Of a stretch of 32,000 nucleotides of DNA, positions 9,633 through 27,601 are shown one piece after another. Origin of the DNA: Geobacter sulfurreducens PCA (GTDB taxonomy: Bacteria > Desulfobacterota > Desulfuromonadia > Geobacterales > Geobacteraceae); the NCBI RefSeq assembly GCF_000007985.2, contig NC_002939.5:1470001-1502000 (forward strand), given 5' to 3'. The stretch's first letter is position 1; each line of letters begins with the position of its first letter. A model generated the notes under the pieces. It saw nothing but the letters and a program-made list of their open reading frames with translations. It was not told the origin of the DNA and ran no database searches. Made by a program: the position numbers and the translations under genes.

Positions 9633-9636
9633 ATCC

Positions 9637-9948: not shown

Positions 9949-10032
9949 AGGTGGCGGGGCCCTGGAGGCGAATGTTTGCTGAGCGGGGTTGGGAATACAA
10001 CTTTGAATTGGATTTTGTACGGTGCAAATTAG

Positions 10033-10046
10033 GAAAATCAATCTTT
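10033..10046. repeat. 14-bp direct repeat GAAAATCAATCTTT, left flank of IS
   Basis: An identical 14-mer occurs at 11398-11411, immediately outside the two IS termini. Confidence 0.7.
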
Positions 10047-10111
10047 TATGGCGGCCCCGGTTTTCTTGGACACGAAAATGAGGTAAATCTAGGTGTTCAA
10101 GGAGGTCGTCA

Positions 10112-10474
10112 ATGGAAAAGGATGTCAGTGTCTCCGGTGCGGCGGAAGGAGAGCGTAGCTCGACTGGAGCAGCACCGGAAGTCAAACGTTGGAGCGCCAA
10201 CCGCAAAAAGGAGGTTGTCCTGCGGTTGATGCGCGGTGAACCAATCGATGCCTTGTCCCGTGAGTTGGGCATCGAAATCTATCGCCTGGAAGAGTGGCAT
10301 CAGAAAGCACTCCAGGGGATAGAATCTGCTCTCAAGGCTCGTGAAGGTGATCCGTTGGCAGCGGAACTCGATGCAGCCTTCAAGCGCATCGGTGAGATCA
10401 CCATGGAAAACGAGCTACTGCGGGAGAAAGCGAGGCGTGCCCACCCTTTGGCCCAGAGGAGATCGAAGAAATGA
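10112..10474 (+). CDS. IS3-family transposase OrfA (HTH plus coiled coil)
   Basis: 120 aa. RWSANRKKEVVLRLMRGEPIDALSRELGIEIYRLEEW looks like an HTH and is followed by a leucine-zipper-like helix. A GGAGG RBS is present. Confidence 0.75.
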   Translation: MEKDVSVSGAAEGERSSTGAAPEVKRWSANRKKEVVLRLMRGEPIDALSRELGIEIYRLEEWHQKALQGIESALKAREGDPLAAELDAAFKRIGEITMENELLREKARRAHPLAQRRSKK

Positions 10475-11361: not shown

Positions 11362-11397
11362 CTCTTATCTTGTGTCCAGGGTACCGGGCGCGCTACA

Positions 11398-11411
11398 GAA
11401 AATCAATCTTT
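11398..11411. repeat. 14-bp direct repeat GAAAATCAATCTTT, right flank of IS
   Basis: Identical to 10033-10046. It lies 12 nt upstream of the MazG-like GTG start. Confidence 0.7.
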
Positions 11412-11423
11412 CCAGGGGATTAA

Positions 11424-11780
11424 GTGGAAAAAACAATACGTGAATTAACAGTGAGAGTTCGGGAGTTTTGCGAAGCACGAGATTGGGATCAATTCCATGG
11501 CCCAAAGGATCTTGCTATAGGGGTCATTACAGAGGCTTCGGAACTCTTAGAGCATTTCCGCTTTCAGTCTGATGAACAGGCGTTGGCATTGTTGAATGAC
11601 CCTAAAATTAAAGAGGAGATCGAAGATGAGCTTGCCGATGTCCTATTCTTCCTGCTCCGTTTCTCGCAGTTGTTCGATGTTGACCTGACCAAGGCCCTGC
11701 TGAGGAAGATCGAGAAGAGCGAAAAGAAATATCCCGTAGAAAAGGCAAAAGGGAAGAATACGAAGTACACGAAGCTGTAG
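11424..11780 (+). CDS. MazG-like nucleoside triphosphate pyrophosphohydrolase (all-alpha NTP-PPase)
   Basis: 118 aa with a GTG start. EASELLEHF and EEIEDELADVLFFLLRF form the ExxE...ExxD metal-binding pattern of MazG-type enzymes. GC is lower than in the flanking genes. Confidence 0.75.
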   Translation: MEKTIRELTVRVREFCEARDWDQFHGPKDLAIGVITEASELLEHFRFQSDEQALALLNDPKIKEEIEDELADVLFFLLRFSQLFDVDLTKALLRKIEKSEKKYPVEKAKGKNTKYTKL

Positions 11781-11809
11781 GCCGATATCCGCGTTCACAG
11801 GGGCCAGCA

Positions 11810-14212: not shown

Positions 14213-14234
14213 TCTTACGGCGGATTGAGGTTCA

Positions 14235-17200
14235 ATGCGTTTAGCTCACGGCATATACGAAGCACTTCTCGATGAAGCTTTGCAGGAGGCCCTAGCCCTG
14301 CGGCCGGAACTGCGACGCGTTTTCAGCAAGATCGATCAGGAGGAGCAGCCGGCCCTCTATGCCGCCTTTGTCGCCCGGGTACTGGAGCAGGCGCTGCGAG
14401 AGGAGTCGGACCAGGAAAAGCGCCTCGCACTCTGCAACCGGATTCTTGGCTCCGTGGCTGCTGAGCCGGGTAGGGGGCATCTGGAAAAGCGCCGTCTGAT
14501 CCCGGAACAGAAGCCGCTCCTCTTGGAAATCACCCCGCCCAACTACAACCAATCCGGGCTCCCCCGGCCCCATACCTCTCTTGCACAAAGCAGTCTCTTT
14601 ACCGGAGCAGATGGTCATCTCCAGCTTGTCCATGAGTTGCTGGCTGAACTACGCTCCGCCGACGGGGTGGATATCCTCGTATCCTTCATCAAGTGGTCCG
14701 GTCTGCGGCTCCTCATGCCGGCTTTTGAAGATCTGCGTGACCGACAGGTCCCGGTGCGGCTGATCACCACCTCCTACATGGGGGCGTCCGATGCCCCGGC
14801 GGTGGAGTGGCTGGCTGGTCTCCCCAACGTGCAGGTCCGAGTCTCCTACGACACCGAGCGGACCCGGCTCCACGCCAAGGCCTATCACTTCCGGCGGCAG
14901 AGCGGCTTCTCCACCGCCTACATCGGCTCAGCCAACATGTCCCAGGCGGCGATTACCAGCGGGCTGGAGTGGAACCTGAAAGTCACCGCCCAGGACATGC
15001 CTCACGTGCTGGAGAAGTTCAGCGTCGAGTTCGAGACTTACTGGAACAGCCGGGAATTCGTCCCCTTCGATCCGGCCCGGCCGGAGCAGTTTCGCAGCGC
15101 CCTGGCCCGCGCCAAGAACAAGGAGATCAGCGGTCCGGCGGTCTTTTTCGATCTTACCCCCCACCCGTTTCAGGAGCGGATTCTGGAAGCGCTGGAGCGG
15201 GAGCGCAGCGCCCACGACCGCTGGCGCAATCTGGTCATCGCCGCCACCGGCACCGGTAAGACCGTGGTAGCGGCCTTTGATTTCAAGCGCTTCTATGAGC
15301 AGAAACAGAAGCAGGCAAAGCTCCTTTTCCTGGCCCACCGGCAGGAGATTCTCCAGCAGGCACTCGGCACCTTCCGCAACATCCTGCGGGACCAGAATTT
15401 CGGCGAACTGCAGGTCGGGCCCTATGACGCCACCCGTCTGGAGCACCTCTTCTGCTCCGTCGGTATGCTCACCTCCCGCCGCCTCTGGGAGCAGGTCGGC
15501 CCGGACTTCTACGACTACATCGTCATCGACGAAGCCCACCACGGCACGGCCGGCAGCTACCGTCCCATCTTCAACCACTTCTCCCCGCAGATACTGCTGG
15601 GACTCACCGCCACCCCGGAACGGATGGACGGCGATAACGTGGCCGCCGATTTTGGCAACCGCTTTGCCGCCGAGATCCGCCTCCCTGAAGCGCTGGAGGA
15701 GAAGCTCCTCTGCCCCTTCCACTACTTCGGCATTGCCGACCCCATCGCCATCAACGGCGATCAGTTCTGGCGCAATGGCAAGTACGATGCCGCGGCTCTG
15801 GAGAACGTCTATGTCCTCGATACGGCCAACGCCCGTAAGCGGGTGGCGGCGATCATTGAGGCTCTGAAGCGCTACGAGCCGGACGTAGCGAGCCTCAAGG
15901 GGATCGGTTTTTGCGTCACCATCCGCCATGCCGAGTACATGGCCGAGCAGTTCAGCCAGCGCGGCATCCCGTCAGCCCCCTTTGTCTCCGGCATCGACTC
16001 CGACCAGTGCGCCGACCTCCTGGCCCGGCTGAGAAACGGCCAGCTCACCTTCCTCTTCACCGTGGACAAGCTGAGTGAAGGGGTGGACGTGCCGGAGATC
16101 AACACCGTCCTCTTTCTGCGCCCCACCGAGAGCCTGACGGTCTTTCTCCAGCAGCTCGGCCGCGGCCTGCGCCATGCCCCGGAGAAGGAGTGCCTCACCG
16201 TCCTCGACTTTGTCGGTCAGGCCCACCGCCGCTACCGCATCGACACCAAGCTGAAAGCACTCCTCCCCCGGCACCGCTTCGCCATCGACAAGGAAGTGGA
16301 GCAAGATTTCCCCCATCTGCCGGCCGGCTGCGCCATCCAGCTTGACCGCCTCTCCCGCCAGTATGTGCTGGACAATATCCGGGAGAACTTCGGCCGTCTG
16401 GCGGTGCAGGTGCCGGACCGGCTCCAGACCTTTACCAGCGAGACCGGGCAGGAGCTGACCTTTGGCAACTTCATCCGCTACCACGATTACGAGCCGGAGG
16501 TGCTGCTGGCCAAGGAGTCGTGGAGCGAGTGGAAAGCCAAGGCCCAACTGGCGCCGATTCCGGTCGATCCCGATCTGGCGCGGCTGAAGAAAGCCCTGCT
16601 CCGGGCGGCCTTCATCAATGGCCCACGGGAAGCAGAGCTGCTGCGGCAACTGCTGGCCATGCTTGCCGCCGGGCAGGTGATCGAGGCGCTGGCTCTGGCC
16701 GGTTCATCGGCCATGCTGCTCTATTACCGCATCTGGGGGGATAGGGCGGAGAAGGTGGGGATTGCCTCGCTGGCAGAGGCCTTCCAACGGCTAGCCGCCA
16801 ACCCGAGCATCTGCGCCGATTTGGACGAGATTTTGGCCTGGTCGTTGGATACCACCGAAGTTGCCGGGATTGCCCCGGAGCTGCCGTATCGTGTGCCGCT
16901 GGAGTTGCACGCCCAGTATGGCATTCGTGAGGTTCAGGCCGCCTTTGGCCGTGCGACGCTGGAGAGCAGCGGCCAGACCGGGGTCGGGGTGATGCACTTT
17001 GCCGAGCAGAAGACCTATGCCCTGTTGGTGACCTTCCAGAAGACGGAAAAGGAGTTCTCCCCCAGCACCATGTATGCGGATTACCCCATCAGCCGGGAGC
17101 TGCTGCACTGGGAGTCCCAGGCCAACACCGCCCAGCATCACACCGACGGGCAGAACCTGATTCATCATCAGGAGCGGGGCTACACGGTTCTGGTATTTGC

Positions 17201-17360
17201 CCGTGGGAAGAAAAAGCGGAACGGGGTTACAGTGCCGTTCACTTACCTGGGGCCGGTGGATATGGTGAGTTATGAGAGCGAGCGGCCGATTAAGATGGTC
17301 TGGCGGCTCAGGTATGCGATGCCGGTGGAGATGTTTGAGGATAATCGGCGGGGTGGGTGA
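14235..17360 (+). CDS. PLD-family nuclease domain + SF2 (ResIII/DEAH) helicase + DUF3427-like C-terminal domain
   Basis: 1041 aa. HKD motif RLHAKAYHF...YIGSANMS. Helicase motifs I ATGTGKT, II VIDEAHH, III LTATP and VI QQLGRGLRH. The C-terminal 200 aa (YGIREVQAAFG...YALLVTFQK...YADYPIS...LHWESQ...VLVFAR) matches my recollection of DUF3427. Confidence 0.75.
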   Translation: MRLAHGIYEALLDEALQEALALRPELRRVFSKIDQEEQPALYAAFVARVLEQALREESDQEKRLALCNRILGSVAAEPGRGHLEKRRLIPEQKPLLLEITPPNYNQSGLPRPHTSLAQSSLFTGADGHLQLVHELLAELRSADGVDILVSFIKWSGLRLLMPAFEDLRDRQVPVRLITTSYMGASDAPAVEWLAGLPNVQVRVSYDTERTRLHAKAYHFRRQSGFSTAYIGSANMSQAAITSGLEWNLKVTAQDMPHVLEKFSVEFETYWNSREFVPFDPARPEQFRSALARAKNKEISGPAVFFDLTPHPFQERILEALERERSAHDRWRNLVIAATGTGKTVVAAFDFKRFYEQKQKQAKLLFLAHRQEILQQALGTFRNILRDQNFGELQVGPYDATRLEHLFCSVGMLTSRRLWEQVGPDFYDYIVIDEAHHGTAGSYRPIFNHFSPQILLGLTATPERMDGDNVAADFGNRFAAEIRLPEALEEKLLCPFHYFGIADPIAINGDQFWRNGKYDAAALENVYVLDTANARKRVAAIIEALKRYEPDVASLKGIGFCVTIRHAEYMAEQFSQRGIPSAPFVSGIDSDQCADLLARLRNGQLTFLFTVDKLSEGVDVPEINTVLFLRPTESLTVFLQQLGRGLRHAPEKECLTVLDFVGQAHRRYRIDTKLKALLPRHRFAIDKEVEQDFPHLPAGCAIQLDRLSRQYVLDNIRENFGRLAVQVPDRLQTFTSETGQELTFGNFIRYHDYEPEVLLAKESWSEWKAKAQLAPIPVDPDLARLKKALLRAAFINGPREAELLRQLLAMLAAGQVIEALALAGSSAMLLYYRIWGDRAEKVGIASLAEAFQRLAANPSICADLDEILAWSLDTTEVAGIAPELPYRVPLELHAQYGIREVQAAFGRATLESSGQTGVGVMHFAEQKTYALLVTFQKTEKEFSPSTMYADYPISRELLHWESQANTAQHHTDGQNLIHHQERGYTVLVFARGKKKRNGVTVPFTYLGPVDMVSYESERPIKMVWRLRYAMPVEMFEDNRRGG

Positions 17361-17419
17361 TTCTTGGGGCTGACAAGATAATCACTACTTCCAGACTTGT
17401 ATACAGGGGATCTAATAGC

Positions 17420-19183
17420 ATGGATGTCTTAACTGACAATGAGTTTTACCAGCACTACCTTCAGAATTCACAGCACATGATGTGGTTTTTAGGGGCAGGA
17501 ACGTCTCGTTCTGCTGGTTTGCCTACTGCTAGCGATATCATTTGGGATCTTAAACATCGATATTACTGCTTACATGAAAATCAGGATTATCAAAAACATG
17601 ACATCAATAATCATGCAATAAAAAGCAAAATCCAAAGTTATATGGATAGCAAGGGATTTCCTTTACAGTGGAGTCCAGAAGAATACTCATTTTATTTTGA
17701 ATTGGTCTTCCGCGATGATTACGAGGCGCAACGAAAGTACCTTTTAGAAGCCCTTGCCAGCAGAAAGGTGTCTCTGAATATCGGTCACCGAGTTCTTGCT
17801 GCCCTACTTGAGATGAACCAGACCAAAGTTGTTTTCACAACCAACTTTGATGATGTCATAGAAACCGCCTTCTCAGATATTAGTGGCAAGCATTTGTCTG
17901 TTTATCACCTTGAAGGATCCTATGCCGCCTTATCTGCATTGAATACCGAAGCCTTTCCCATTTACGCCAAGATTCATGGCGACTTCCGTTATCAAAAAAT
18001 AAAAAATCTTACCCCAGATCTGCAGACCAATGATCGCGAAATACATAAATGCTTTCTTGCTGCAGCTATCAGGTTCGGTCTTGTTGTATCAGGCTATAGT
18101 GGTCGTGATGAAAACGTTATGACTATGCTTCGGGCTGCAATCGATCAGAACAATGCATTCCCGCATGGGCTCTACTGGACCGTACCCTCTATTTCTAAGT
18201 CGGAGCCAGCCGTTCAGGATTTGATCACTTACGCACAAGGCAAAGGTGTTCGCGCCTATCTGGTGGAAACCGGTACATTTGATGAAATGCTCTCAAAGAT
18301 TTGGCGACAGGTGAAAGACAAACCTGCTGCCATCGATGCCAAAGTACGAACAGCCCGAGTTTGTCCCGTTTCCATACCACTACCCGGCCCCGGCAAATCC
18401 TTTCCGGCCTTGCGTACCAACGCTCTACCAGTGGTCACTCAATCCATCCGATGCGGAGTTGTAACGTTGGCTAGTCCTATAACCTTCTCCGAGCTGAAGG
18501 AAAGGATAAGTCAGAAATCGCCAAAAGCACTCCTGACGTACACGGAAAAGGTATTGTTTTTGGGTGGAGAGCCAGAAATCAGAAAGATTTTTTCAAATGA
18601 CGAGATCAATTCCATCGGTCAATACTATATTGATGAGATAGCTCAAAGCGTTGCCGCCTCTACTTTCTTGAAATCCTTTGTTGAGGAGGCAATTCTCACT
18701 GCGTTATTGCGCGAGAAACCCATTCTGCACCGTGTCCGGCATAGAACACATTATGCAGTTATACCGAATGCCTCAGCAAAAGATGACAGATTTTTGGATT
18801 TAAGAAAGGCAGTGGGGTTCAAAGGAGATCTTGGGTACATTACCGGAAACGTTACAAATGCAAAAGAATTGAGTTGGGCTGAAGCCGTGTCGATTCGTCT
18901 TGAAGAACGAGGGGGCAAGCTCTGGATCATGCTAAAACCGGAAATTTGGATAAAGCCATTGGATAGGCGAGAAGAGGCCACGGATTTCATTCGAAGTCGA
19001 AGACGTTATCGATTCAATCAATGTTCATATCAGATCCTCGATGCCTGGATCAAAATACTGTTCGGTTCAATCGGAGGTGGCGGTACGGTAAATATATCTT
19101 GTTTCCCTGATGCAGAGTTTAAAGCCGAGTTCGAGATCGGAACACGCACTGCCTTTAGTCTGGGGGTGGGATATGGCCGATAA
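17420..19183 (+). CDS. SIR2-APAZ protein (NADase partner of short pAgo; SPARSA type)
   Basis: 587 aa from the ATG at 17420, with AGGGGA as RBS. SIR2 Rossmann motifs [19 protein letters not shown] (N142) and KIHGD (H186). The long C-terminal half is consistent with APAZ. It overlaps the downstream Argonaute gene by 11 nt. GC drops sharply relative to the upstream helicase. Confidence 0.85.
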
Positions 19184-20594
19184 TCTTTCGCAGCTTGCGG
19201 CACATTCAACCATTCCAGAGCCCTTGCTTCTCTTCAAAGACAACCGTACAGACACACATCCTCTTCGTGGGCTCTCACAGTATGGGCCTTATAGCGCCTG
19301 TTTTAACCTTCCAGGTCAAGTTAGGCTAGCATACCTTGCCCCCACAGAGCATATGCGCAAGCTGGATGCCATTGTACGCGAGTTGCAGAACCCAGCTACG
19401 CCGAAGGAAGCGACGAACTATTATGTGGAGTATGGAGGATTTGAGAAAGTCTTCAAGGTGCCACTAGTTATGCCGCAGGAACATCTGAGATGTTTAGCCC
19501 TGGATGAATGTCATGGTGTTGCGGCAAATGGCAACGGACTCGCTCTTGCAGATAAGATTGTTCAGTCGATGTCTGGTCTTTTTCGACAAAAACATGCGTT
19601 TGATGTTCTGTTAGTGTATTTGCCTGCCAGCTGGAAGAAGTGTTTTGAGTATGATGGATTTGACCTGCATGACCGAATAAAGGCGAAAGTTGCTCCGCTC
19701 AATTTGCCTATTCAAATCATCAACGACACTGCGCTAACGAGACAATGCCGCGCCAATGTCATGTGGGGTGTCAGCGTTGCCCTGTATGCTAAAGCAGGCG
19801 GAATACCGTGGAAGCTGGCGGACTGGGATAAAGACGAAGCTTATATCGGACTCAGTTATGCCATCAAGAAAAATGCTGAAGGACAAGAATATACAACGTG
19901 CTGCAGCCAGGTCTTTGATCCGGATGGAACCGGCTTTGAATTTGTAGCCTACGACACGCGCGAATTTATTACCGATCGTAAAGGCAACCCGTATCTCAGC
20001 TACCAGGAAATGCAATCCGTTCTTTCAAAAAGCCTTCACCTTTATCAGAGCAGCCATAACGGACGAATGCCACGAAAAATTTTCATTCACAAAACTACGC
20101 ACTTCACTGAAGATGAAATACAGGGGGCATTCGATTCTTTCAGCAGTTCGACAGAGATCGAACTCGTGCAGATTATTCAGAGCACAAACTGGTATGGATT
20201 GAAAGTTGACGGTAAAAAGGGAGATAAACCTGTAGCTCCAGCATCATACCCAGTAGATAGAGGTTTGTATCAACCGCTGACAGAATCAGAATGCTTGCTC
20301 TGGACTCAAGGTAGCGTTATGGGGGTGAATCAACAAAATCCGGGTCAACCGGTGTTCAAGGAAGCGGCTCTTACTCCTCTACCGAACCCGATCATGTTGC
20401 GTCGTTTTTCAGGCAATGGAGGCTGGCATGCTACCTGTTCAAGCATTCTTGCGCTGACGAAGGTTGACTGGAACAATAATACGCTCTACAAAAAGTTACC
20501 AGTCACTCTCGTTTATTCACAAGTTTTCGCAGATGTTGTGAAGCAGACACCGGAAATTGTTAACGAAATATATGATTATCGGTTTTTTATGTAA
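19173..20594 (+). CDS. short prokaryotic Argonaute (MID-PIWI only, predicted catalytically inactive)
   Basis: 473 aa. PIWI-like [17 protein letters not shown] sits where active Agos carry G-x-D. The size is too small for N/PAZ domains. The ATG at 19173 lies inside the 3' end of the SIR2-APAZ gene. Confidence 0.85.
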
Positions 20595-20650
20595 TGTTTG
20601 ATCTTAACTTAAGACCAGCACATCGAGTAATACTCTAATAGGCAAAATAT

Positions 20651-21832
20651 ATGGATTTAATCGAAATAGCTGATGTAAGAGAATGGCTAAGCCAATTTAG
20701 TGAAGCAGACATCCCAATTGCTATATCGATGTTAAGATCATTGAATCTAGTTTCTCATAATGCGTTTAGTGCCGGGATTGAAAATAGCATTAAAACTATC
20801 GTTAAAAAACATGGGAAAGCCGCGGTTTTTCCAGTTAAACGTGCGTTGGTTAAGAAAGTGCCTGGAAAAGACTATCGGCATCTTTATCAGAGTGCAGATG
20901 CGATTGGTTACTTACTCACAAACCTTGAAAGAAGTATGCCTAGGAGCATTTCTGTAGAGCCAACGCACGCCAGCATGAAGGCCGAGAAGGTAAAACATAT
21001 AGTTTTTATTGATGATTTAATAGGTACTGGGAAGCGAGTTAATAGCTTTTGGCAAGAATGGGCTAACAAAAGTTATAAGAGTTGGTTGTCTTTCAGGTAT
21101 TGCGAGTTATACATCTTGAGTTATGCAGCATCTAGAAGCGGGATTGAGTATTTATTAAATGAAATACCATATCTTAAACCTGAGAATATACTTACATCAA
21201 TATCACTGCCTAGAGTCAGTCCACTTGCCAATGATGAAATGAAAAGAATTTGTAACTACTATGGGGAAAAAACCGCAAAGTCAGTAGTGAAGTTCGGTTA
21301 TGGTAACCAGATGTTAAATGTAATTTTTCAGCATGCTTGTCCTAATAATGCACCCTCCATCTTATGGTCTCCCGGAAAACAGTGGAAGGCTTTATTTCCG
21401 AACAGATCCATTCCAGCATCCTTTCATAAGGTGTTTGGTGGAACCTTTCCATTTAAAATAGCTGATTCGTTATGGGATATTCATCAGCCTCGGCTAGCAC
21501 TGGAGATTCTCGATCGTCTAGAATCAGGAAGAATACAACGGGAAACTGTTGAACTGTTAACAGTCCTGGGTTTTCTGGCGAGAGGTGTTGGCCTTATAAG
21601 AATATATGAATGTACCCTCTTGGAGAAATCTAGGGTCGACGAAGCCATTTTGATATTGAAGCAGGTGGGACTTGTAACAAAGAATTTTGAGATTACCAGT
21701 TTTGGTAAAGAAGTTCTTAATCGATTTAAGGCAACAGATAAACGGAAATATGAGCTTGTCTGCGACCAATTATTGTACTACCCTCATCAATTTAAGGGGC
21801 TCCAGAGAAAATCTAGTGAAGGCCCAACCTGA
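20651..21832 (+). CDS. phosphoribosyltransferase-like (PRTase) protein with C-terminal winged-helix-like domain; candidate retron effector
   Basis: 393 aa. KHIVFIDDLIGTGKRV (D121 D122 ... T126 G127) matches the PRPP-binding loop pattern (hydrophobic4-DD-xx-TG). The C-terminal LEILDRLESGRIQRETVELLTVLGFLARG...ILILKQVGLVTKNFEITSFGKEVL looks wHTH-like. GC is very low. Confidence 0.6.
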   Translation: MDLIEIADVREWLSQFSEADIPIAISMLRSLNLVSHNAFSAGIENSIKTIVKKHGKAAVFPVKRALVKKVPGKDYRHLYQSADAIGYLLTNLERSMPRSISVEPTHASMKAEKVKHIVFIDDLIGTGKRVNSFWQEWANKSYKSWLSFRYCELYILSYAASRSGIEYLLNEIPYLKPENILTSISLPRVSPLANDEMKRICNYYGEKTAKSVVKFGYGNQMLNVIFQHACPNNAPSILWSPGKQWKALFPNRSIPASFHKVFGGTFPFKIADSLWDIHQPRLALEILDRLESGRIQRETVELLTVLGFLARGVGLIRIYECTLLEKSRVDEAILILKQVGLVTKNFEITSFGKEVLNRFKATDKRKYELVCDQLLYYPHQFKGLQRKSSEGPT

Positions 21833-21990
21833 GTGTTGGGTACGAGTAGGCAGCGGATTCCGCGAGCCATTGGAATAGCACATGAATGAACAAGGATATT
21901 AATGGCAAACGCTTACGTTCGTATGCCTTACTACGTTCGCCATTAATGTCCTCGCTTCGCGAGGTTGAAGTAGATGAGTATCTGGAGCCC
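21797..21990 (+). ncRNA. candidate retron msr-msd non-coding RNA
   Basis: A perfect 10-bp inverted repeat, GGGCTCCAGA (21797-21806) and TCTGGAGCCC (21981-21990), brackets the PRTase-RT intergenic region. Inside are a 6-bp hairpin (21823-21840) and a long stem (21893-21911 pairing 21934-21952, one mismatch and one G:T wobble). An alternative 6-bp hairpin is at 21950-21964. The exact ends and the branching G are not determinable by eye. Confidence 0.55.
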
Positions 21991-23116
21991 GCTTTTATTT
22001 AATGCTGAAGGAAAGAAACAAGGGTATGATTGCCGTTATCTCCACAAGTTAACTGACCAAGGGAATAAACTCTCAGACAGTGGTTTGCCTGTAATTTTCA
22101 CGCTCGCTCACCTGTGTGCGATGGCAGGTGTTTCCTTTTCTCTCATTCACTCCTGTGTGTCCAGGAAATACGACCCATATAGAAGCTTTACAATTAAAAA
22201 GAGGTCGGGAGGGTATCGCCAAATTGTGGTGCCTGAACCTGAGTTAATGCATCTCCAGAGATGGATTAATGAGTTTATATTGAAGCGGGCAAAGGTGCAT
22301 TCTTGTGCTGCTGCATATATTTCAGGCTCCGATATAAAAATGAATGCTTCAAAGCATCTCGGTGCAAACTGGCTAATAAAGTTAGATATACAGAGATTTT
22401 TCGAGTCTATATCAGAACTGCAAGTTTATTATATCTTCCATAGACTTGGGTATCCAAAATTATTGTCGTTTGAAATGGCCAGAATCTGTACCAGAGTAGA
22501 CACCCAAAGCAATAGACATTTTAGACCAAGATGGAATAACAGAATCCATCACTTCGAAATCCTTGAGTACTGTGATTCTAGGGTTGGTTATTTACCACAA
22601 GGTGCTCCTACTAGTCCGAGTTTGTCCAATTTAACCTGCCGAAAACTTGATAAAGAAATTTACGACCTTAGTTGCCGTTCTGATTGCCGATATACTAGAT
22701 ATGCAGATGACTTCGCCTTTTCTTTTATAGATCTTGATAGGGAAAAAGCCTCAAATTTTGTAAATCAAGTCAGTCGAATCATATCATCTTACGGTTTTAG
22801 AAAGAATGCTCGAAAAACAAAGATCATACCCCCTGGATCAAAAAAAATTATTACCGGGCTTGTTTTGGGTAATGGGAAAGTGCATCTTCAGAAAGAATTA
22901 AAGGATTACATAAGACAAAATATATACTTTGCAACTAAATATGGTGTAGATGAACACTGTAAAAAACGTGGATTCGTCTCAATAGATGGATTTTATAATC
23001 ATCTGGAAGGAATTGTTAATTTTGCACTATTTATTGAACCAGATTTTGGAGAAAAAGCCTTTGAGGAGTTTCGTGCAATTAAGTGGCCATCTTTAATAGT
23101 GGGGCTTCATGCTTAG
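21974..23116 (+). CDS. retron-type reverse transcriptase
   Basis: 380 aa. RT motifs: FTIKKRSGGYRQIVVP (motifs 1/2), KLDIQRFFESI (motif A), LPQGAPTSPSLSNL (motif B), YTRYADDFAFS (YADD, motif C). Retron-associated signatures: NASKH (NAxxH, residues 124-128) and IITGLVL (VTG-like, residues 292-295). GAGG RBS lies 9 nt upstream. Confidence 0.85.
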   Translation: MSIWSPLLFNAEGKKQGYDCRYLHKLTDQGNKLSDSGLPVIFTLAHLCAMAGVSFSLIHSCVSRKYDPYRSFTIKKRSGGYRQIVVPEPELMHLQRWINEFILKRAKVHSCAAAYISGSDIKMNASKHLGANWLIKLDIQRFFESISELQVYYIFHRLGYPKLLSFEMARICTRVDTQSNRHFRPRWNNRIHHFEILEYCDSRVGYLPQGAPTSPSLSNLTCRKLDKEIYDLSCRSDCRYTRYADDFAFSFIDLDREKASNFVNQVSRIISSYGFRKNARKTKIIPPGSKKIITGLVLGNGKVHLQKELKDYIRQNIYFATKYGVDEHCKKRGFVSIDGFYNHLEGIVNFALFIEPDFGEKAFEEFRAIKWPSLIVGLHA

Positions 23117-23167
23117 AACAAGTGGTCGTGTCGCAACCATTTACAAGTTCATAATATTTTGAGAACC

Positions 23168-24148
23168 ATGACCTTTCTCCCCACCTCCCTCAAATTCTTC
23201 TCCTCCCTCTCCCGCGCCTCCGGCGCAGTCTGGACCGAGGCCACCAAGCGCAAGGCGCCGCACAAGCCGCTGCTGCTCCTGGCGGTGCTGGATCTGGTTC
23301 ATCGCGGTGTCATCACTACGCCGTTCATCGCCGTCAGTGGCGATCTGGTGGAGCTGAACGAGCTGTTCAACCTCTACTGGCGGCGGATCATCCCTCTCGG
23401 TCAGACCAGCAGCATCGCCTTCCCCTTCTCCCGACTCGCCCGCGAACCGTTCTGGGAGCTGGTCCCCCAGCCGGGGAAAAACATCACCGATGCGGTAATC
23501 AACAACACCTCCTCCGTCAGCTACCTGCGCAAGTACGCCCTGGGGGCGAAGCTGGACGACGGGCTGTTCCGGGTCATGGCGAGCGGGGAGGGGCGGGAGG
23601 CACTGCGGGAAGCGCTGCTCCTTTCCTGCTTCTCGCCCGAGGCGTCGGCGCAGCTGCGGGAGCAGTCGATCATCAACCGAGAGGCGTTCGACTACAGCCG
23701 ACTGCTGGAGGAACAGGCCCACCTGCCGCTGGTGAAGGAGATCGTCGAGGCGGACAACTACCGGCCCACGGTGCGGGACCAGGCCTTCCGCAAGGTGGTG
23801 ACCTCGGCCTACGACCACCGCTGCGCCCTGTGCGGCATCCGCATCGTCACCCCCGACGGCCACACGGTGGTGGAGGCAGCCCACATCGTGCCGTGGAGCA
23901 GAAGCCAAAACGACGACATCCGCAACGGCATGGCCCTCTGCAGAACCTGTCACTGGGGCTTCGACGAGGGGATGCTCGGCGTCTCTGACAACTACACCGT
24001 CATCACCTCCCGCTCCATCGGCATCGACCCCAACTTCCCCGGCCTGCTCCAGACCCTCTCCGGCCGTGGCATCATCCCGCCGGCCGACCCGGATAAATTC
24101 CCGGCCCGCGAGTATTTGGCCGAGCATCGCCGGGCGTGGCGGCTGTAA
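23168..24148 (+). CDS. HNH endonuclease with uncharacterised N-terminal DNA-reading-like domain (type IV restriction-like)
   Basis: The C-terminal HNH/Zn motif is DHRCALCG...EAAHIVPW...IRNGMALCRTCHWGFDEG. The N-terminal 200 aa begin KAPHKPLLLLAVLDLV...IAFPFSRLAREPFWEL. GC returns to about core level. I prefer the ATG at 23168 over the TTG at 23159. Confidence 0.7.
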   Translation: MTFLPTSLKFFSSLSRASGAVWTEATKRKAPHKPLLLLAVLDLVHRGVITTPFIAVSGDLVELNELFNLYWRRIIPLGQTSSIAFPFSRLAREPFWELVPQPGKNITDAVINNTSSVSYLRKYALGAKLDDGLFRVMASGEGREALREALLLSCFSPEASAQLREQSIINREAFDYSRLLEEQAHLPLVKEIVEADNYRPTVRDQAFRKVVTSAYDHRCALCGIRIVTPDGHTVVEAAHIVPWSRSQNDDIRNGMALCRTCHWGFDEGMLGVSDNYTVITSRSIGIDPNFPGLLQTLSGRGIIPPADPDKFPAREYLAEHRRAWRL

Positions 24149-24202
24149 CGTACGTCATGAAGGTCGAAAACATATTCAGATACGAATCAGAAGTGAGGAG
24201 AT

Positions 24203-25249
24203 ATGGCACGACAACGAACTAGCCCAATGGAAGAAATGATTTTGGTTGCCACCAAGCTCCCCTGGTGGGCGTGCCTGCTGCTGGCACTTGTGTCGTACGC
24301 CGTGCTTCACGTGATGGCAATGCGGCCTGTAATGCCTGCTACGGTTGTCCCCGGCCAGATGGGTGACGCCGTGGCACGGGGGCTCATTACGACTCTGGCC
24401 ATGTTTGGACAGTACGTGATGCCATTTGCGTTTGCTCTGGCTGCCCTGCTGTCGGCCGTTAATGAATATCGGAATAAAAAGAGCGGTACTTTCGTCCCTA
24501 ATCATCTTGATGTAGCGCCACCTTCCAGGAAAAGAGTGTCAACAGAAGCTAGCGTTCCAATGCCCACATCCGGTAATTCCGGAAAGATGAACCGGGATTT
24601 CGATCATATGCTTCCTGGTGGTGAGGAAGAACTAGCAATTGAGAATCCGCAACCTGTCCCATTGCCGCAGCAGTGGGGCATGTCTGTCATTCAAATGATG
24701 GAGTGGAAGCGTTTTGAAATTGTCACCCGGGAATTTCTGAAGATGACAGGATATGATGCCCATGAAACGAAGGTGGGCGCTGATGGCGGAGTGGATATTA
24801 GGGTCACAAAGCCCAGTAACGATACTTTCCAGGGTATTGTGCAGTGCAAAGCTTGGAATTCGTATCGGGTTGGGGTAAAGCCAGTGCGCGAGCTTTATGG
24901 TGTCATGGCCGCCGAAAAGGCGACGGCTGGTATGGTTATCACATCCGGTACCTTTACTGCGGAAGCGGAAGAATTTGCTAAAGGGAAGGTCAAACTAATT
25001 TCTGGCGTGAATTTTCTTGAGCTTATTCGAAAATTGCCACCGGAGAAACAACAAAGGCTTCTGGATATTGCATTGGAAGGGGATTATCAAACGCCAACGT
25101 GCCCACAGTGTGACCTGAAAATGACACTGCGCGAAAATAAGTCGGGGAAAAATCCAGGGTCAAAATTCTGGGGATGTGTCCGGTATCCCCACTGTCGGCA
25201 AACGCTCGTATATACCGGGAACGGAAGCCGGGTCAGGCTTCCAAGTTGA
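24203..25249 (+). CDS. membrane-anchored Mrr-like restriction endonuclease with C-terminal topoisomerase-type zinc ribbon
   Basis: Two N-terminal hydrophobic helices (LPWWACLLLALVSYAVLHVMA; MFGQYVMPFAFALAALLSAV). Mrr_cat-like core WKRFEIVTREFL...GADGGVDIRV...GIVQCKAW. C-terminal CPQCD...FWGCVRYPHCRQT. GAGGAG RBS. Confidence 0.75.
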   Translation: MARQRTSPMEEMILVATKLPWWACLLLALVSYAVLHVMAMRPVMPATVVPGQMGDAVARGLITTLAMFGQYVMPFAFALAALLSAVNEYRNKKSGTFVPNHLDVAPPSRKRVSTEASVPMPTSGNSGKMNRDFDHMLPGGEEELAIENPQPVPLPQQWGMSVIQMMEWKRFEIVTREFLKMTGYDAHETKVGADGGVDIRVTKPSNDTFQGIVQCKAWNSYRVGVKPVRELYGVMAAEKATAGMVITSGTFTAEAEEFAKGKVKLISGVNFLELIRKLPPEKQQRLLDIALEGDYQTPTCPQCDLKMTLRENKSGKNPGSKFWGCVRYPHCRQTLVYTGNGSRVRLPS

Positions 25250-25528
25250 TAAGATTATTGCTCCCAGAACTCGGCAACCTCCTTCAGGATGCTCTCCGAA
25301 ACCAGCTCCGTTGCATCGGAGTCGAACCAGGCGCGGCTGGCAGGCGCGGCTGGGGTCGGACCAAACTAATAGCTCGAAATTATAAAGTTATTCCGATAAT
25401 CAAGGCGCATTATCGGCCTTAGAAGCACATTTTTGCCGTGAAAAGTGAGGCTTTTAGAAATGGCACGGGCAAATCGGTATCACAAGGGGAGGGATGAAAT
25501 AGTCATGCAAAAATAGCTTATAGTTGCC

Positions 25529-25557
25529 TAGTATGTCCAAAAATAATGGACATACTA
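25529..25557. promoter_or_regulatory. palindrome TAGTATGTCC-N9-GGACATACTA (candidate AbiEi operator, copy 1)
   Basis: Perfect 10-bp arms lie about 47 nt upstream of the truncated abiEi start. An identical element is at 25890-25918. Confidence 0.5.
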
Positions 25558-25603
25558 TGTTGTAAATTGTTATATTGTTGCCATCACACCGGAGATGGTG
25601 ATC

Positions 25604-25747
25604 ATGACGAACGCCCTGTTGCTCAAAAGCATCCCCTATGAGGAGTTTGACTACCAGACCCTGCTGGATGCCGTTCATGGGTATGCCCGGCCACGGATGA
25701 AGGAGGCGCGGCTGGGGTCGGACCAAGCTAATAAGTCGAAATTATAA
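25604..25747 (+). pseudogene. truncated duplicate of abiEi 5' end (33 native codons then junction-derived tail)
   Basis: MTNALLLKSIPYEEFDYQTLLDAVHGYARPRMK is identical to the AbiEi N-terminus except A/V at one position. It then reads EARLGSDQANKSKL-stop across the duplication junction. Confidence 0.7.
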
Positions 25748-25889
25748 AGTTATTCCGATAATCAAGGCGCATTATCGGCCTTAGAAGCACATTTTTGCCG
25801 TGAAAAGTGAGGCTGTTAGAAATGGCACGGGCAAATCGGTATCACAAGGGAGGGATGAAATGGTCATGCAAAAATAGCTTATAGTTGCA

Positions 25890-25918
25890 TAGTATGTCCA
25901 AAAATAATGGACATACTA
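25890..25918. promoter_or_regulatory. palindrome TAGTATGTCC-N9-GGACATACTA (candidate AbiEi operator, copy 2)
   Basis: Perfect 10-bp arms lie about 47 nt upstream of the abiEi ATG at 25965. AbiEi-family antitoxins are known autorepressors that bind inverted repeats. Confidence 0.5.
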
Positions 25919-25964
25919 TGTTGTAAATTGTTATATTGTTGCCATCACACCGGAGATGGTGATC

Positions 25965-26618
25965 ATGACGAACGCCCTGTTGCTCAAAAGCATCCCCTAT
26001 GAGGAGTTTGACTACCAGACCCTGCTGGATGTCGTTCATGGGTATGCCCGGCCACGGATGAAGATTTCCGCGATGCTGGCAAAGGGCGATATCATCCGGG
26101 TCAAGAAGGGGCTCTACATCCTCGGCGAACCTCTGCGCCGTCGGCCTTTCTGCCGGGAACTGCTCGCCAATCTCGTCTATGGCCCATCCTATATTTCTCT
26201 TGAATACGCCTTGCACTATCACGGCCTGACCCCGGAGCGGGTCGAGGCGGTGACTTCGGTTACCTGCGGGCGGTCACGGACCTTCGCTACCCCGGTCGGC
26301 ACCTTTTCCTATCGAATGATCCCGCTGGAAGCCTTTCGCACCGGCATGGACCGCGTTGAGTTGGATGATGGCCGCTCCTTCCTCGTGGCCATTCCGGAAA
26401 AGGCGCTGGCCGACCGGATCGTTGCCGACCGGGGCGCCGGCATCTCCACCCAGAAAGAGCTGCACGAGTACCTGCTGTCCAGCCTGCGCATCGATCCCGG
26501 CGGTCTCCGTGAACTCGATCCGGTCCGTGTTGCGGAGATCGCCCGTGCGTACCGCTCCCGCAGAGTAAAACTATTGGCCGATCTGATCAGCCGCCTGCAC
26601 AGAAGAGGGGGACGATGA
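25965..26618 (+). CDS. abiEi: type IV toxin-antitoxin system antitoxin AbiEi
   Basis: KGDIIRVKKGLYILG and YGPSYISLEYALHYHGLTPE are typical of AbiEi. It overlaps the abiEii start by 4 nt. An alternative ATG is at 25956. Confidence 0.8.
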   Translation: MTNALLLKSIPYEEFDYQTLLDVVHGYARPRMKISAMLAKGDIIRVKKGLYILGEPLRRRPFCRELLANLVYGPSYISLEYALHYHGLTPERVEAVTSVTCGRSRTFATPVGTFSYRMIPLEAFRTGMDRVELDDGRSFLVAIPEKALADRIVADRGAGISTQKELHEYLLSSLRIDPGGLRELDPVRVAEIARAYRSRRVKLLADLISRLHRRGGR

Positions 26619-27490
26619 TGCACGAGGCCGTGGCCCGCATGCTTGCCAAATACGAACCAAAGAGCGTTGACGACTCGGTCAGGGCTCTGCGGGAGATTAT
26701 CCAGGAGGTGGCGCTGCTCGGACTCTGGCGGTCGAAGTTTTTCGAGCATGCCGCGTTTTACGGCGGCACTGCTCTGCGTATCCTGTACGGACTCGACCGG
26801 TTCTCCGAGAATCTGGATTTTTCGCTGCTGGAACCGTCGCCTGATTTCAATCTTGCGCGTTATACGGCATCACTTGAGGAGGAATTGTCGGCCTTCGGCT
26901 TCAACGTCCGGGTGGAGATGGTCGGCAAGGCCGTGGAATCGGCGGTTCAGTCTGCGTTTCTCAAAGCCAACACCCGTAACGAACTCCTGGTCATCGAGAC
27001 CGGTGGAGAGCTTGCCGGTCAGGTTGCCGCCGGCCAGGTGCTGAAGGTGAAGATCGAGGTGGATACGGACCCGCCGACCGGGTTTACCACCTCGACCCGT
27101 TATCTGCTGCAACCGATACCCTTTGCCGTTCGGAGCTATTCGCTCCCGGACCTGTTTGCCGGCAAGATGCATGCGCTCCTCTTCCGCAGGTGGAAAAACC
27201 GGGTCAAGGGGCGCGACTGGTATGATTTCGTCTGGTATGCTGCCAACCATCCGCAGCTTAATCTTGCCCACCTCGAGCAGCGGATGCGCCAGACCGGCCA
27301 TTGGAGCGGGGATCTGCCACTTTCTGCTGCCGCGTTCAGAGAGTTGCTGTCCGATAGCATCGACCGGCTTGATGTCGATCAGGCACGCAACGACGTGGCA
27401 CCGTTCGTCAAGGATCAACAGGCGCTCGCTCTCTGGTCCCATGACTTTTTCCGGGATGTTGCGAGACGCGTTCAGACTGATGAAGGATGA
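26615..27490 (+). CDS. abiEii: AbiEii/AbiGii-family nucleotidyltransferase toxin
   Basis: 291 aa. FYGGTALRILYGLDRFSENLDFSL (NTase G-x-a-l plus D-x-D context), LPDLFAGKMHALLFR and GRDWYDF are typical of the family. Confidence 0.85.
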   Translation: MMHEAVARMLAKYEPKSVDDSVRALREIIQEVALLGLWRSKFFEHAAFYGGTALRILYGLDRFSENLDFSLLEPSPDFNLARYTASLEEELSAFGFNVRVEMVGKAVESAVQSAFLKANTRNELLVIETGGELAGQVAAGQVLKVKIEVDTDPPTGFTTSTRYLLQPIPFAVRSYSLPDLFAGKMHALLFRRWKNRVKGRDWYDFVWYAANHPQLNLAHLEQRMRQTGHWSGDLPLSAAAFRELLSDSIDRLDVDQARNDVAPFVKDQQALALWSHDFFRDVARRVQTDEG

Positions 27491-27601
27491 ACTCGGCAAT
27501 CTCAAGGAGTGAAGGACATACCCGGCGAATCAAGACCGAACGCAACGGTTGCTGACGCCGGGAGAAGTATCTGGTCGAGTATCGCAGAGAATGGCGGTTA
27601 T

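What the first reader, a model, noticed from the sequence alone, without database searches (positions are those of the whole stretch)
21797..21990. A perfect 10-bp inverted repeat brackets a hairpin-rich PRTase-RT intergenic region: putative a2/a1 arms of msr-msd
GGGCTCCAGA (21797-21806, inside the 3' end of the PRTase gene) is the exact reverse complement of TCTGGAGCCC (21981-21990, codons 3-6 of the RT). Retron ncRNAs are defined by such a2/a1 arms flanking msr and msd. A G follows the 5' arm at 21807 and is a possible branching guanosine.

Structures between the arms:
- a 6-bp hairpin CCCAAC-CTGAGT-GTTGGG (21823-21840) overlapping the PRTase stop codon
- a long stem in which 21893-21911 pairs with 21934-21952 (19 positions, one A:C mismatch, one G:T), msd-like
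- an 8-nt direct repeat TACGTTCG (21914-21921 and 21932-21939) inside that stem region
- an alternative small hairpin at 21950-21964

A 10-bp perfect inverted repeat in such a small region has a chance expectation well below 1% by rough estimate.
Basis: seen in the sequence. Interest (0 to 1): 0.7.

Follow-up and report, generated by a model that had tools for sequence, protein, structure and literature searches.

The report
Type III-A retron template RNA (msr-msd)

Summary
The interpretation, that these are the a2/a1 arms of a retron msr-msd, is supported.

- **Genes:** the flanking genes are a PRTase-CE+wHTH effector (20651-21832) and a retron reverse transcriptase (RT, 21974-23116). Both score best on the same PADLOC sub-models as Retron-Eco11, the characterised type III-A3 retron.
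- **RNA model:** a covariance model built only from nine homologous loci hits the window once, at 21790-21997 (+), with 110.8 bits and E 8e-32. It also finds the Eco11 ncRNA.
- **Covariation:** across 19 distinct sequences, 92% of cells pair, against 75% in shuffles and about 40% when partners are slid. Twenty of 32 pairs show changes on both sides.
- **Nucleotide constraint:** in the nearest diverged relative (RT 67% aa identical) the ncRNA is 89% identical in DNA and the flanking coding DNA 63-65%. It carries three compensatory changes.

- The 10-bp repeat is only the outer arm. A conserved inner arm, AUCUA 21811-15 with UAGAU 21971-75, follows.
- The invariant G21816 aligns with Eco11's mutationally tested branching G28. 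G21807 does not.
- By homology the msDNA is about 91 nt, the complement of 21879-21969.
- The TACGTTCG direct repeat is not conserved.

This is a new member of a known kind. Nothing was tested experimentally.

The parts
20651..21832 (+). Effector gene: PRTase-like domain fused to a winged-helix domain (393 aa). Carries the PRPP loop IVFIDDLIGTG, the retron motif Gx14PNNxP, and the C-terminal peptide YYPHQFKGL followed by 9 extra residues.
   Evidence: PADLOC PRTase_III-A model PDLC02933, E 1e-89. Pfam PRTase-CE plus wHTH-PRTase_assc. Motifs found by regex. The Eco11 effector scores best on the same sub-model.
21794..21994 (+). Retron ncRNA (msr-msd) from the first to the last paired base. It overlaps the last 39 nt of the effector gene and the first 21 nt of the RT gene.
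   Evidence: Leave-out model R1 gives its only hit in the window at 21790-21997 (+), 110.8 bits, E 7.7e-32. MFE z = -5.0.
21794..21806 (+). a2 outer arm, AAG+GGGCUCCAGA.
   Evidence: Helix 1 has 8 of 12 pairs with changes on both sides and 93% of cells paired. G21799-C21988 becomes A-U in L081.
21811..21815 (+). a2 inner arm, AUCUA.
   Evidence: RNAalifold predicts it without being told. Helix 2 has 97% of cells paired, with C-G/U-A and U-A/C-G exchanges. It corresponds to the end of Eco11's inner arm, UGUUUCAUUUA.
21816..21816 (+). Predicted branching guanosine, the G of the invariant UAG motif.
   Evidence: G in 20 of 20 aligned sequences (column 38). It aligns through R1 with Eco11 G2032, which is rG28. 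Mutating rG28 to C abolished Eco11 defence (PMC12746101). The branch itself was not tested here.
21823..21840 (+). msr stem-loop 1, CCCAAC-CUGAGU-GUUGGG, with the effector stop codon in the loop.
   Evidence: A21827-U21836 becomes U.G in L081, and the L081 stop codon TAA is also in the loop.
21849..21868 (+). msr stem-loop 2, GGC.GCGG-AUU-CCGC..GCC.
   Evidence: Helix 3 has 7 of 8 pairs with changes on both sides. RNAalifold also predicts it.
21869..21879 (+). Conserved single-stranded AUUGGAAUAGC. C21879 is the predicted last templated base, where reverse transcription stops.
   Evidence: The AGC is conserved in the alignments. In Eco11, counting the published 101-nt msdDNA back from dT1 at A2218 ends at C2118 of UUAGC. 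The assignment in the window is by homology.
21879..21969 (+). msd, the template for a predicted msDNA of about 91 nt that is the reverse complement of this stretch.
   Evidence: Boundaries come from homology to Eco11. As DNA, the complement of 21880-21970 folds into DSLa plus DSLb at -18.1 kcal/mol, z = -4.4.
21893..21952 (+). Long msd stem-loop (DSLb). The basal stem pairs 21893-21911 with 21934-21952 and the apex is variable.
   Evidence: I1. G21905-C21940 becomes C-G in L081, and G21904 becomes A, which gives A.C in RNA and T.G in cDNA. Most homologues with RT up to about 49% identical have a long hairpin here, though weak in several of the closest.
21950..21964 (+). Small hairpin (DSLa), CCUCGC-UUC-GCGAGG. 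Its 3' arm GAGG lies 9 nt before the RT AUG and looks like a Shine-Dalgarno sequence.
   Evidence: Helix 5 has 3 of 5 pairs with changes on both sides. Eco11 has a 13-nt DSLa at the same place.
21965..21970 (+). Conserved UUGAAG (family consensus UCAAAG). G21970 faces the branching G, and A21969 is the predicted first template base, giving dT1.
   Evidence: Columns 367-369 are A 20/20, A 19/20 and G 20/20. Eco11 has UCAAAG|UAAAUG at the same place, and its authors predict dT1.
21971..21975 (+). a1 inner arm, UAGAU. It overlaps the RT start codon at 21974-21976.
21981..21994 (+). a1 outer arm, UCUGGAGCCC(G)CUU, with G21991 bulged. It covers RT codons 3-7.
21974..23116 (+). Retron reverse transcriptase (380 aa) with the motifs NASKH (NAxxH), YADD and ITG (VTG).
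   Evidence: PADLOC RT_III-A model PDLC02944, E 1.6e-165. 41% identical to RT-Eco11. Motifs confirmed by regex.

Best explanation
Window 20651-23116 is a complete type III-A3-like retron, ordered effector, ncRNA, RT.

What the sequence and comparisons show:
- The ncRNA spans 21794-21994 and is embedded in the operon. It overlaps the end of the PRTase-wHTH effector gene and the start of the RT gene.
- Its ends pair in a two-part closing stem. A 4x5-nt internal loop and a conserved 5-bp inner arm follow.

What is inferred from retron biology and from homology to Retron-Eco11:
- The RT binds this fold and uses the 2'-OH of G21816, the invariant G just 3' of the inner arm, as primer.
- It copies the msd leftwards, starting at A21969 (or at G21970).
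- It passes through the small hairpin DSLa and the long stem-loop DSLb.
- It stops at C21879 in the conserved AAUAGC.
- The product is a branched msDNA of about 91 nt.

By analogy with Eco11 only, and not tested here: the msDNA-RT complex holds the PRTase effector inactive until a phage helicase disturbs the complex. The effector then depletes PRPP and aborts the infection.
For: Proteins:
- The effector matches PRTase_III-A at E 1e-89 and the RT matches RT_III-A at E 1.6e-165.
- Pfam finds PRTase-CE plus wHTH-PRTase_assc.
- The catalytic and retron-specific motifs are intact.
- Both Eco11 proteins score best on the same PADLOC sub-models, PDLC02933 and PDLC02944.
- RT identity to Eco11 is 41%.

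RNA:
- Model R1 was built from nine homologues, without the window or its two nearest relatives. It hits the window once, at 21790-21997 (+), 110.8 bits, E 7.7e-32.
- Across 90 sources R1 gave 20 hits. All lie next to an RT gene on loci that carry a PRTase-like effector where the upstream sequence is available, and none of the roughly 60 retron loci without a PRTase was hit.
- R1 finds the Eco11 ncRNA at 45.3 bits, E 1.6e-13.

Covariation:
- 92.3% of cells pair, against 74.6% in shuffles and 37-45% when partners are slid.
- 20 of 32 pairs have changes on both sides.
- The covariation score is 0.509 against 0.187, reached by 0 of 500 shuffles.

Other comparative evidence:
- RNAalifold on a plain MAFFT alignment recovers the outer arm, inner arm, msr hairpin and DSLa independently.
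- Twenty-five of 26 loci have an a2/a1 helix at the same codons but with different sequences.
- Against L081 (RT 67% aa identical), the ncRNA is 88.6% identical in DNA, and the flanking coding DNA is 65.3% and 62.6%. Three changes are compensatory and several fall in loops.

Eco11 anatomy matches element by element.
Against: - No experimental data exist for this locus: no msDNA, no mapped branch, no defence phenotype.
- Rfam 15 has no matching family.
- The msr portion folded alone is not significant, z = -1.75.
- The inner arm is only 5 bp here, against 11 bp in Eco11.
- The window has two msr stem-loops where Eco11 has three.
- The effector is only 28% identical to Eco11's over the PRTase domain.
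- The alignment used for the pair counts was fitted to the model's structure, which favours that structure.
- No convincing promoter or terminator was found.
- The msDNA start (dT1) in Eco11 is itself a prediction by its authors.
Confidence: 0.9

Rival explanations
1. It is the same retron ncRNA, but the branching guanosine is G21807, directly after the 10-bp repeat, and reverse transcription starts at A21980.
For: G21807 directly follows a perfect helix. A21980 would give dT1, which is the first base predicted for Eco11. The equivalent column is G in 16 of 20 sequences (column 24).
Against: - That column is not invariant: four sequences have another base there (A twice, T and C), including L088 (CA) and L006.
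- The inner arm beyond it covaries. If cDNA synthesis started outside it, that constraint would have no obvious reason.
- In Eco11 the published ncRNA primer and arm lengths (14 + 2 + 11 nt, then G28) place the tested branching G in UUUAG. R1 aligns that G with window G21816.
Confidence: 0.1
2. The inverted repeat and hairpins are a chance or coding-driven by-product of the two gene ends and have no RNA function.
For: The window holds 23 perfect inverted repeats of 10 bp or more, so the repeat alone proves little. Both arms lie in coding sequence.
Against: - The arms differ in sequence between loci yet stay complementary, which forces the two protein termini to change together.
- The ncRNA DNA is far more conserved than the flanking coding DNA, 88.6% against 63-65%.
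- The leave-out model gives E 8e-32.
- The placement arises in only 0.25% of shuffles.
Confidence: 0.01
3. The structure is mainly a translational or transcriptional control element between the two genes, for example an attenuator or a mask over the RT start codon, and not an msDNA template.
For: The RT start codon (21974-76) sits in the inner arm. A GAGG that looks like a Shine-Dalgarno sequence (21961-64) sits in the DSLa hairpin. Translation of the effector must unwind a2.
Against: No U-tract terminator is present. The full msr/msd anatomy, the invariant UAG and AAAG motifs, and the homology to a retron proven to make msDNA (Eco11) are explained by a template role. Control of RT translation may be an added consequence, not an alternative.
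Confidence: 0.04
4. The retron is a recently transferred but inactive remnant: the ncRNA is recognisable but no msDNA or defence is produced in this host.
For: The locus has 38-42% GC in a genome of about 66% GC. No promoter was recognised. In both complete E. coli genomes that carry Eco11, its PRTase gene is split by an IS3 element, so decay does occur in this family.
Against: Both ORFs are full length with intact catalytic motifs. All ncRNA helices are intact. The 97%-identical relative L082 has an identical ncRNA.
Confidence: 0.1

Closest known systems
Retron-Eco11 (type III-A3; Garcia-Rodriguez et al., NAR 2025, PMC12746101)
   Same: - Same gene order: PRTase-wHTH effector, ncRNA, RT.
- The ncRNA overlaps both genes.
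- a2 is encoded in the effector's C-terminal YYPxxLRxx peptide and a1 in RT codons 3-7.
- Two-part closing stem that ends in UAG, opposite AAAG|UA.
- DSLa hairpin followed by a long DSLb, and the conserved AGC at the RT stop.
- Same best PADLOC sub-models for both proteins.

   Different: - RT is only 41% identical and the PRTase domain 28%.
- The inner arm is 5 bp after a 4x5 internal loop, not 11 bp after two bulged A residues.
- There are two msr stem-loops, not three.
- The effector ORF runs 9 codons further, through the branching G, and stops in the loop of msr stem-loop 1.
- The RT has NAxxH and YADD where Eco11 has AAxxH and YSDD.
- The predicted msDNA is about 91 nt against 101 nt.
Type IIIA3 ncRNA class of Mestre et al. 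2020 (NAR 48:12632, PMC7736814)
   Same: It is associated with clade-9 retron RTs and fused PRTase+wHTH effectors (cluster 67_3). It has terminal inverted repeats, msr hairpins and a long msd stem-loop.
   Different: Their covariance models were not available here, so membership was tested with a model built here from homologous loci, not with theirs.
Retron-Eco1 / Ec86 (type II-A3, same RT clade 9)
   Same: From my own knowledge of the Ec86 sequence: the branching G lies in a UUAG context at the 3' end of a2, and the msd forms a long hairpin. From PMC12746101: the effector has two lobes with a C-terminal winged helix and a terminal peptide.
   Different: The effector is nucleoside deoxyribosyltransferase-like, not PRTase-like. 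The ncRNA lies upstream of the genes, not between effector and RT. No sequence similarity to the ncRNA was detected here, and Rfam gave no hit.
Type III-A1 and III-A2 retrons
   Same: PRTase-like effector and related RTs. PADLOC RT_III-A models also score for these, but lower.
   Different: In these types the winged-helix protein is a separate downstream gene (Mestre 2020). Here it is fused to the PRTase domain.

Membership tests
Retron (general) | Retron-type reverse transcriptase with YxDD plus the retron-specific NAxxH and VTG motifs | tested here: met
   RT_III-A E 1.6e-165. NASKH at residue 124, YADD at 243, ITG at 293.
Retron (general) | Adjacent ncRNA whose 5' and 3' ends pair (a2/a1) and enclose the msr hairpins and a long msd stem-loop | tested here: met
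   Covariation: 20 of 32 pairs with changes on both sides, and 0 of 500 shuffles reach the observed score.
Retron (general) | Conserved unpaired G directly 3' of a2 that serves as the branching primer | tested here: met
   An invariant G (20 of 20) at window 21816 follows the inner arm and aligns with Eco11 rG28. That it forms a 2'-5' branch is inferred, not shown.
Retron (general) | Production of branched msDNA with a 2'-5' RNA-DNA linkage | not testable with these tools
   Needs msDNA extraction, debranching or sequencing of the RT-made DNA.
Retron type III-A3 | Effector with an N-terminal PRTase-like domain (PRPP loop, Gx14PNNxP) fused to a C-terminal winged helix | tested here: met
   PDLC02933 E 1e-89. 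Pfam PRTase-CE plus wHTH-PRTase_assc. IVFIDDLIGTG and GYGNQMLNVIFQHACPNNAP.
Retron type III-A3 | Conserved C-terminal peptide YYPxxLRxx at the very end of the effector (cluster 67_3) | tested here: inconclusive
   YYPHQFKGL is present at residues 376-384, but with F and K in place of L and R, and it is followed by 9 more residues. The closest relatives L081 and L086-L090 share the extension.
Retron type III-A3 | ncRNA lies between effector and RT on the same strand and overlaps both genes | tested here: met
   The ncRNA 21794-21994 overlaps the effector end (21832) and the RT start (21974). Eco11 has the same layout.
Retron type III-A3 | ncRNA matches the family's sequence-and-structure profile | tested here: met
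   Leave-out model R1 gives the window 110.8 bits and E 7.7e-32, and the same model finds Eco11 at E 1.6e-13. The published IIIA3 model of Mestre et al. was not available.
Retron type III-A3 | RT belongs to clade 9 and groups with cluster 67_3-associated RTs | tested here: inconclusive
   No tree was built. Indirect support: the window RT and RT-Eco11 share the same best PADLOC RT sub-model, PDLC02944, and are 41% identical.
Retron type III-A3 | Anti-phage defence triggered by phage helicases, acting through PRPP depletion | not testable with these tools
   Known only for Eco11 and a few relatives (PMC12746101).
Rfam retron msr family | Match at the curated threshold | tested here: not met
   No Rfam 15 family reaches its gathering score in the window, and there is no retron-related match up to E 10 in 20400-23400. 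This retron ncRNA class appears not to be represented in Rfam.

The most novel reading that the evidence does not exclude
This locus may represent a distinct sub-lineage of III-A3 retrons, together with L081, L082 and, for most of these features, L015 and L086-L090.

Features of the sub-lineage:
- The effector ORF is translated through a2, the internal loop and the branching G, and stops inside msr stem-loop 1.
- The RT start codon sits in the inner arm, and its GAGG ribosome-binding site sits in the DSLa hairpin.

Possible consequences:
- Effector translation and ncRNA folding would be mutually exclusive on any one transcript.
- Ribosomes finishing the effector would unmask the RT start. This could set the ratio of effector, RT and msDNA.

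Separately, a sequence motif in the apical part of the msd loop (CUUAACG...CGG.GCCUCUCU) is conserved as far as Eco11. It could be a specific contact for the effector or RT, or a determinant for sensing the trigger. Published work does not explain it.
Probability: 0.25. Interest if true: 0.4.

Novelty: new member of a known kind. Interest (0 to 1): 0.22.

Why it matters
For annotation, this identifies a complete and apparently intact type III-A3-like retron and gives nucleotide-level predictions. These cover the arms, the branching G21816, an msDNA of about 91 nt, and the DSLa and DSLb stems. The locus could be tested directly or reused as an editing scaffold, since the DSLb stem is where donor sequences are inserted in Eco11.

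It also shows that the UAG / AAAG|UA / AGC landmarks of Eco11 hold across relatives with RTs only 35-49% identical. That helps to place branching sites in unannotated III-A retrons. It does not change what is known about how retrons work.

Tried and rejected
- Rfam at gathering and at permissive thresholds found nothing relevant. The best match was a chance hit of a miRNA model on the long stem.
- Megablast of the retron against complete E. coli genomes gave no match. Blastn of the Cronobacter homologue gave none either.
- A metagenome scan with the single RT protein found no confirmed relative.
- The genome-contig scan returned mostly distant RTs. Only about 25 of the 80 loci carry a PRTase.
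- RNAduplex on wide flanking windows over-extended the pairings and separated poorly from shifted controls. I replaced it with an ungapped helix search.
- MAFFT misaligned the Eco11 5' end, so I used the covariance-model alignment instead.
- The paper's supplementary files are not held. I reconstructed the Eco11 junction from two published primers and used it to find the locus.
- I considered the TACGTTCG direct repeat as a possible functional element and rejected it. The first copy is already changed in L081 and is absent from other relatives.
- I considered an ncRNA upstream of the effector, as in other retron types, and rejected it. Only 56 nt separate the effector from the pAgo gene, and model R1 gives no second hit.
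- The promoter and terminator scan was uninformative.
Full report
**1. The observation**

- GGGCTCCAGA 21797-21806 is the perfect reverse complement of TCTGGAGCCC 21981-21990.
- G follows at 21807.
- The hairpin 21823-21840 has the effector stop codon TGA (21830-32) in its loop.
- The 19-position stem pairs 21893-21911 with 21934-21952, with one U.G and one A.C.
- The direct repeat TACGTTCG occurs twice.
- The small hairpin lies at 21950-21964.

RNA 21790-22000 folds at -77.2 kcal/mol with z = -5.0. The repeat closes the fold and extends to 13 bp with G21991 bulged.

A perfect 10-bp inverted repeat is not rare in itself. The window has 23 with loops of 20-300 nt, against 9.5 expected from shuffles. 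One that joins the last 60 nt of one gene to the first 60 nt of the next arose in only 50 of 20,000 shuffles.

**2. The genes**
- ORF 20651-21832 matches PADLOC PRTase_III-A (PDLC02933, E 1e-89) and Pfam PRTase-CE plus wHTH-PRTase_assc.
- ORF 21974-23116 matches RT_III-A (PDLC02944, E 1.6e-165).
- The effector motifs are intact: PRPP loop IVFIDDLIGTG, Gx14PNNxP, and YYPHQFKGL.
- The RT motifs are intact: NASKH, YADD and ITG.

The literature describes exactly this layout. Mestre et al. 2020 defined type III-A retrons and a IIIA3 ncRNA class. Garcia-Rodriguez et al. 2025 characterised Retron-Eco11. Its ncRNA lies between effector and RT and overlaps both genes. It has a 14-bp outer arm and an 11-bp inner arm, branching G28, three msr stem-loops, and a 101-nt msdDNA with a 13-nt DSLa and a 69-nt DSLb.

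**3. Relatives**

The RT has thousands of homologues, but only two are close: one fragment at 97% and one protein at 67%. The rest are at 49% or below. I collected loci from the genome scan and from look-ups of individual proteins. All the closer ones have a PRTase-CE+wHTH gene directly upstream of the RT, with a gap of 120-220 nt (and the gene tables).

The 67% relative, L081, is the most telling.
- Between the arms its DNA is 88.6% identical to the window.
- The RT coding DNA downstream is 65.3% identical and the effector coding DNA upstream 62.6%.
- Three differences are compensatory: G21799-C21988 to A-U in the closing stem, A21827-U21836 to U.G in msr stem-loop 1, and G21905-C21940 to C-G in the long stem.
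- One difference gives an A.C mismatch in the RNA, which would be T.G in the cDNA.
- The remaining differences fall mainly in loops and other unpaired stretches, including the apex of the long stem.
- The first copy of the TACGTTCG repeat is already changed.

**4. Structure across the family**
- An ungapped helix search finds an a2/a1 helix at the same codons in 25 of 26 loci, and the sequences all differ.
- RNAalifold on a plain MAFFT alignment of 11 sequences predicts four elements: the outer arm, a second inner helix (window AUCUA 21811-15 with UAGAU 21971-75), an msr hairpin (21849-21868) and the small hairpin. Thirteen of its 26 pairs carry compensatory changes.

I then built covariance model R1 from nine homologues, leaving out the window and its two closest relatives.
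- R1 hits the window once on either strand, at 21790-21997 (+), 110.8 bits, E 7.7e-32.
- Across 90 sources it gives 20 hits. All lie next to an RT gene on loci that carry a PRTase-like effector where the upstream sequence is available, and none of the roughly 60 retron loci without a PRTase was hit.
- On the resulting alignment, 92.3% of cells pair, against 74.6% in shuffles and 37-45% when partners are slid.
- Twenty of 32 pairs show changes on both sides.
- The covariation score is 0.509 against 0.187, reached by 0 of 500 shuffles.
- This alignment is fitted to the model, which favours its structure. The RNAalifold result and the L081 comparison do not depend on it.

Most homologues also have a long hairpin with a stable base and a variable apex where the window has its 19-position stem. 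In several of the closest relatives the fold is weak or the MFE splits it into two hairpins. Folded as DNA, the predicted msDNA forms DSLa plus DSLb with z = -4.4.

**5. Direct link to Eco11 and the branching G**

Two primers printed in the Eco11 paper overlap at the effector stop codon. Together they give the junction CAACGTTGAGGAGGCCATAATGTTTCATTTAGCGTTAACAC. This string occurs in two complete E. coli genomes. In both, the PRTase gene is split by an IS3 element.

The Eco11 sequence reads as follows.
- Outer arm: GTTGAGGAGGCCAT, 14 nt.
- Bulge: AA, from the stop codon.
- Inner arm: TGTTTCATTTA, 11 nt.
- Then G, which is therefore G28 and lies in UUUAGC.
- On the other side the sequence is GGGGUCAAAG|UAAAUGAAACA|AUGGUCUCCUCAGC.

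Counting the published 101-nt msdDNA back from the A before that G ends exactly at the C of a conserved UUAGC. The count also reproduces the 13-nt DSLa.

R1 finds this ncRNA at 45.3 bits, E 1.6e-13, and aligns its UUUAG with the window's AUCUAG. In the 20-sequence alignment the G of UAG is invariant, as is the G of AAAG on the msd side.

From this I infer four things for the window.
- The branching G is G21816.
- G21970 faces it.
- Copying starts at A21969, or at G21970.
- Copying ends at C21879, which gives an msDNA of about 91 nt.

These are homology inferences. The Eco11 branch itself rests on a G-to-C mutant and a predicted dT1, not on a mapped linkage.

**6. How this member differs from Eco11**
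- The RT is 41% identical and the PRTase domain 28%. Both proteins still share Eco11's best PADLOC sub-models.
- The inner arm is 5 bp after a 4x5-nt internal loop, not 11 bp after two bulged A residues.
- There are two msr stem-loops, not three.
- The effector ORF runs nine codons beyond the YYPxxLRxx-like peptide, through the branching G, and stops in the loop of msr stem-loop 1. The closest relatives share this.

Because a2 and a1 are both coding, the last residues of the effector and residues 3-7 of the RT change together across loci. The RT start codon lies in the inner arm and a GAGG lies in DSLa. Folding of the ncRNA should therefore mask RT translation, and effector translation should unfold a2. 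This is an inference and was not tested.

**7. Verdict**

There are three corrections: an inner arm was missed, the branching G is probably G21816, and the direct repeat is incidental. The element is a new and fairly diverged member of a known kind, a type III-A3-like retron. It sits in a low-GC defence island of a high-GC genome. No experiment bears on this particular locus.

Noticed in passing
window 9500-27500: The retron sits in a defence island of about 18 kb inside a genome of about 66% GC. In order, the island holds:
- an rve transposase (10471-11361)
- a Schlafen-type helicase with an S24 peptidase domain (11810-14212)
- a type IV methyl-directed restriction enzyme (14235-17360)
- a SIR2-APAZ protein (17357-19183) and a short pAgo (19110-20594), together a SPARSA-type system
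- the retron
- an HNH protein (23159-24148)
- an Mrr_cat protein with a Zn ribbon (24203-25249)
- an AbiEi-like and AbiEii pair (25956-27490)

GC drops stepwise to 47% over SPARSA and 38-42% over the retron, which suggests separate acquisitions.
   Followed up: partly
window 25342-26063: A tandem duplication of about 361 bp (25342-25702 and 25704-26063, 97-99% identical). It repeats the upstream region and the first ~36 codons of the AbiEi-like gene and leaves a truncated extra copy of its 5' end.
   Followed up: partly
window 21912-21933 (apex of the msd stem-loop); same region in L015, L086-L090, L091: The apical part of the msd loop is variable in structure but carries a conserved sequence motif, roughly CUUAACG...CGG.GCCUCUCU. 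In the window it reads CUUACGUUCGUAUGCCUUACU and in Eco11 ...CGUGGUCUUUCU. The Eco11 paper reports that helicase binding does not depend on DSLb stem sequence, so the reason for this conservation is unexplained.
   Followed up: partly
L091 399-1561 and L092 398-1561 (E. coli PSS-15 and tcmA_3): In both complete E. coli genomes that carry Retron-Eco11, the PRTase effector gene is split by an IS3-family insertion, while the ncRNA and RT remain intact. This may reflect counter-selection against the toxic effector.
   Followed up: no
window 21794-21806 / 21981-21994, and the equivalent positions in 25 loci: Both arms of the closing stem are coding, so the last residues of the effector's C-terminal peptide and RT residues 3-7 change together across loci. 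For example, the window has KGLQ paired with IWSP and L087 has LGYQ paired with NWYP. The coupling between the two proteins is imposed by RNA pairing, not by protein contact.
   Followed up: partly
window 17357-19183 / 19110-20594: The listed SIR2-APAZ and pAgo ORFs overlap by 74 nt. This is probably because the mechanical ORF caller picked an upstream ATG for pAgo; PADLOC aligns pAgo from residue 27. pAgo ends only 56 nt before the retron effector starts, with no recognisable terminator in the scanned part of that region (from 20300).
   Followed up: no
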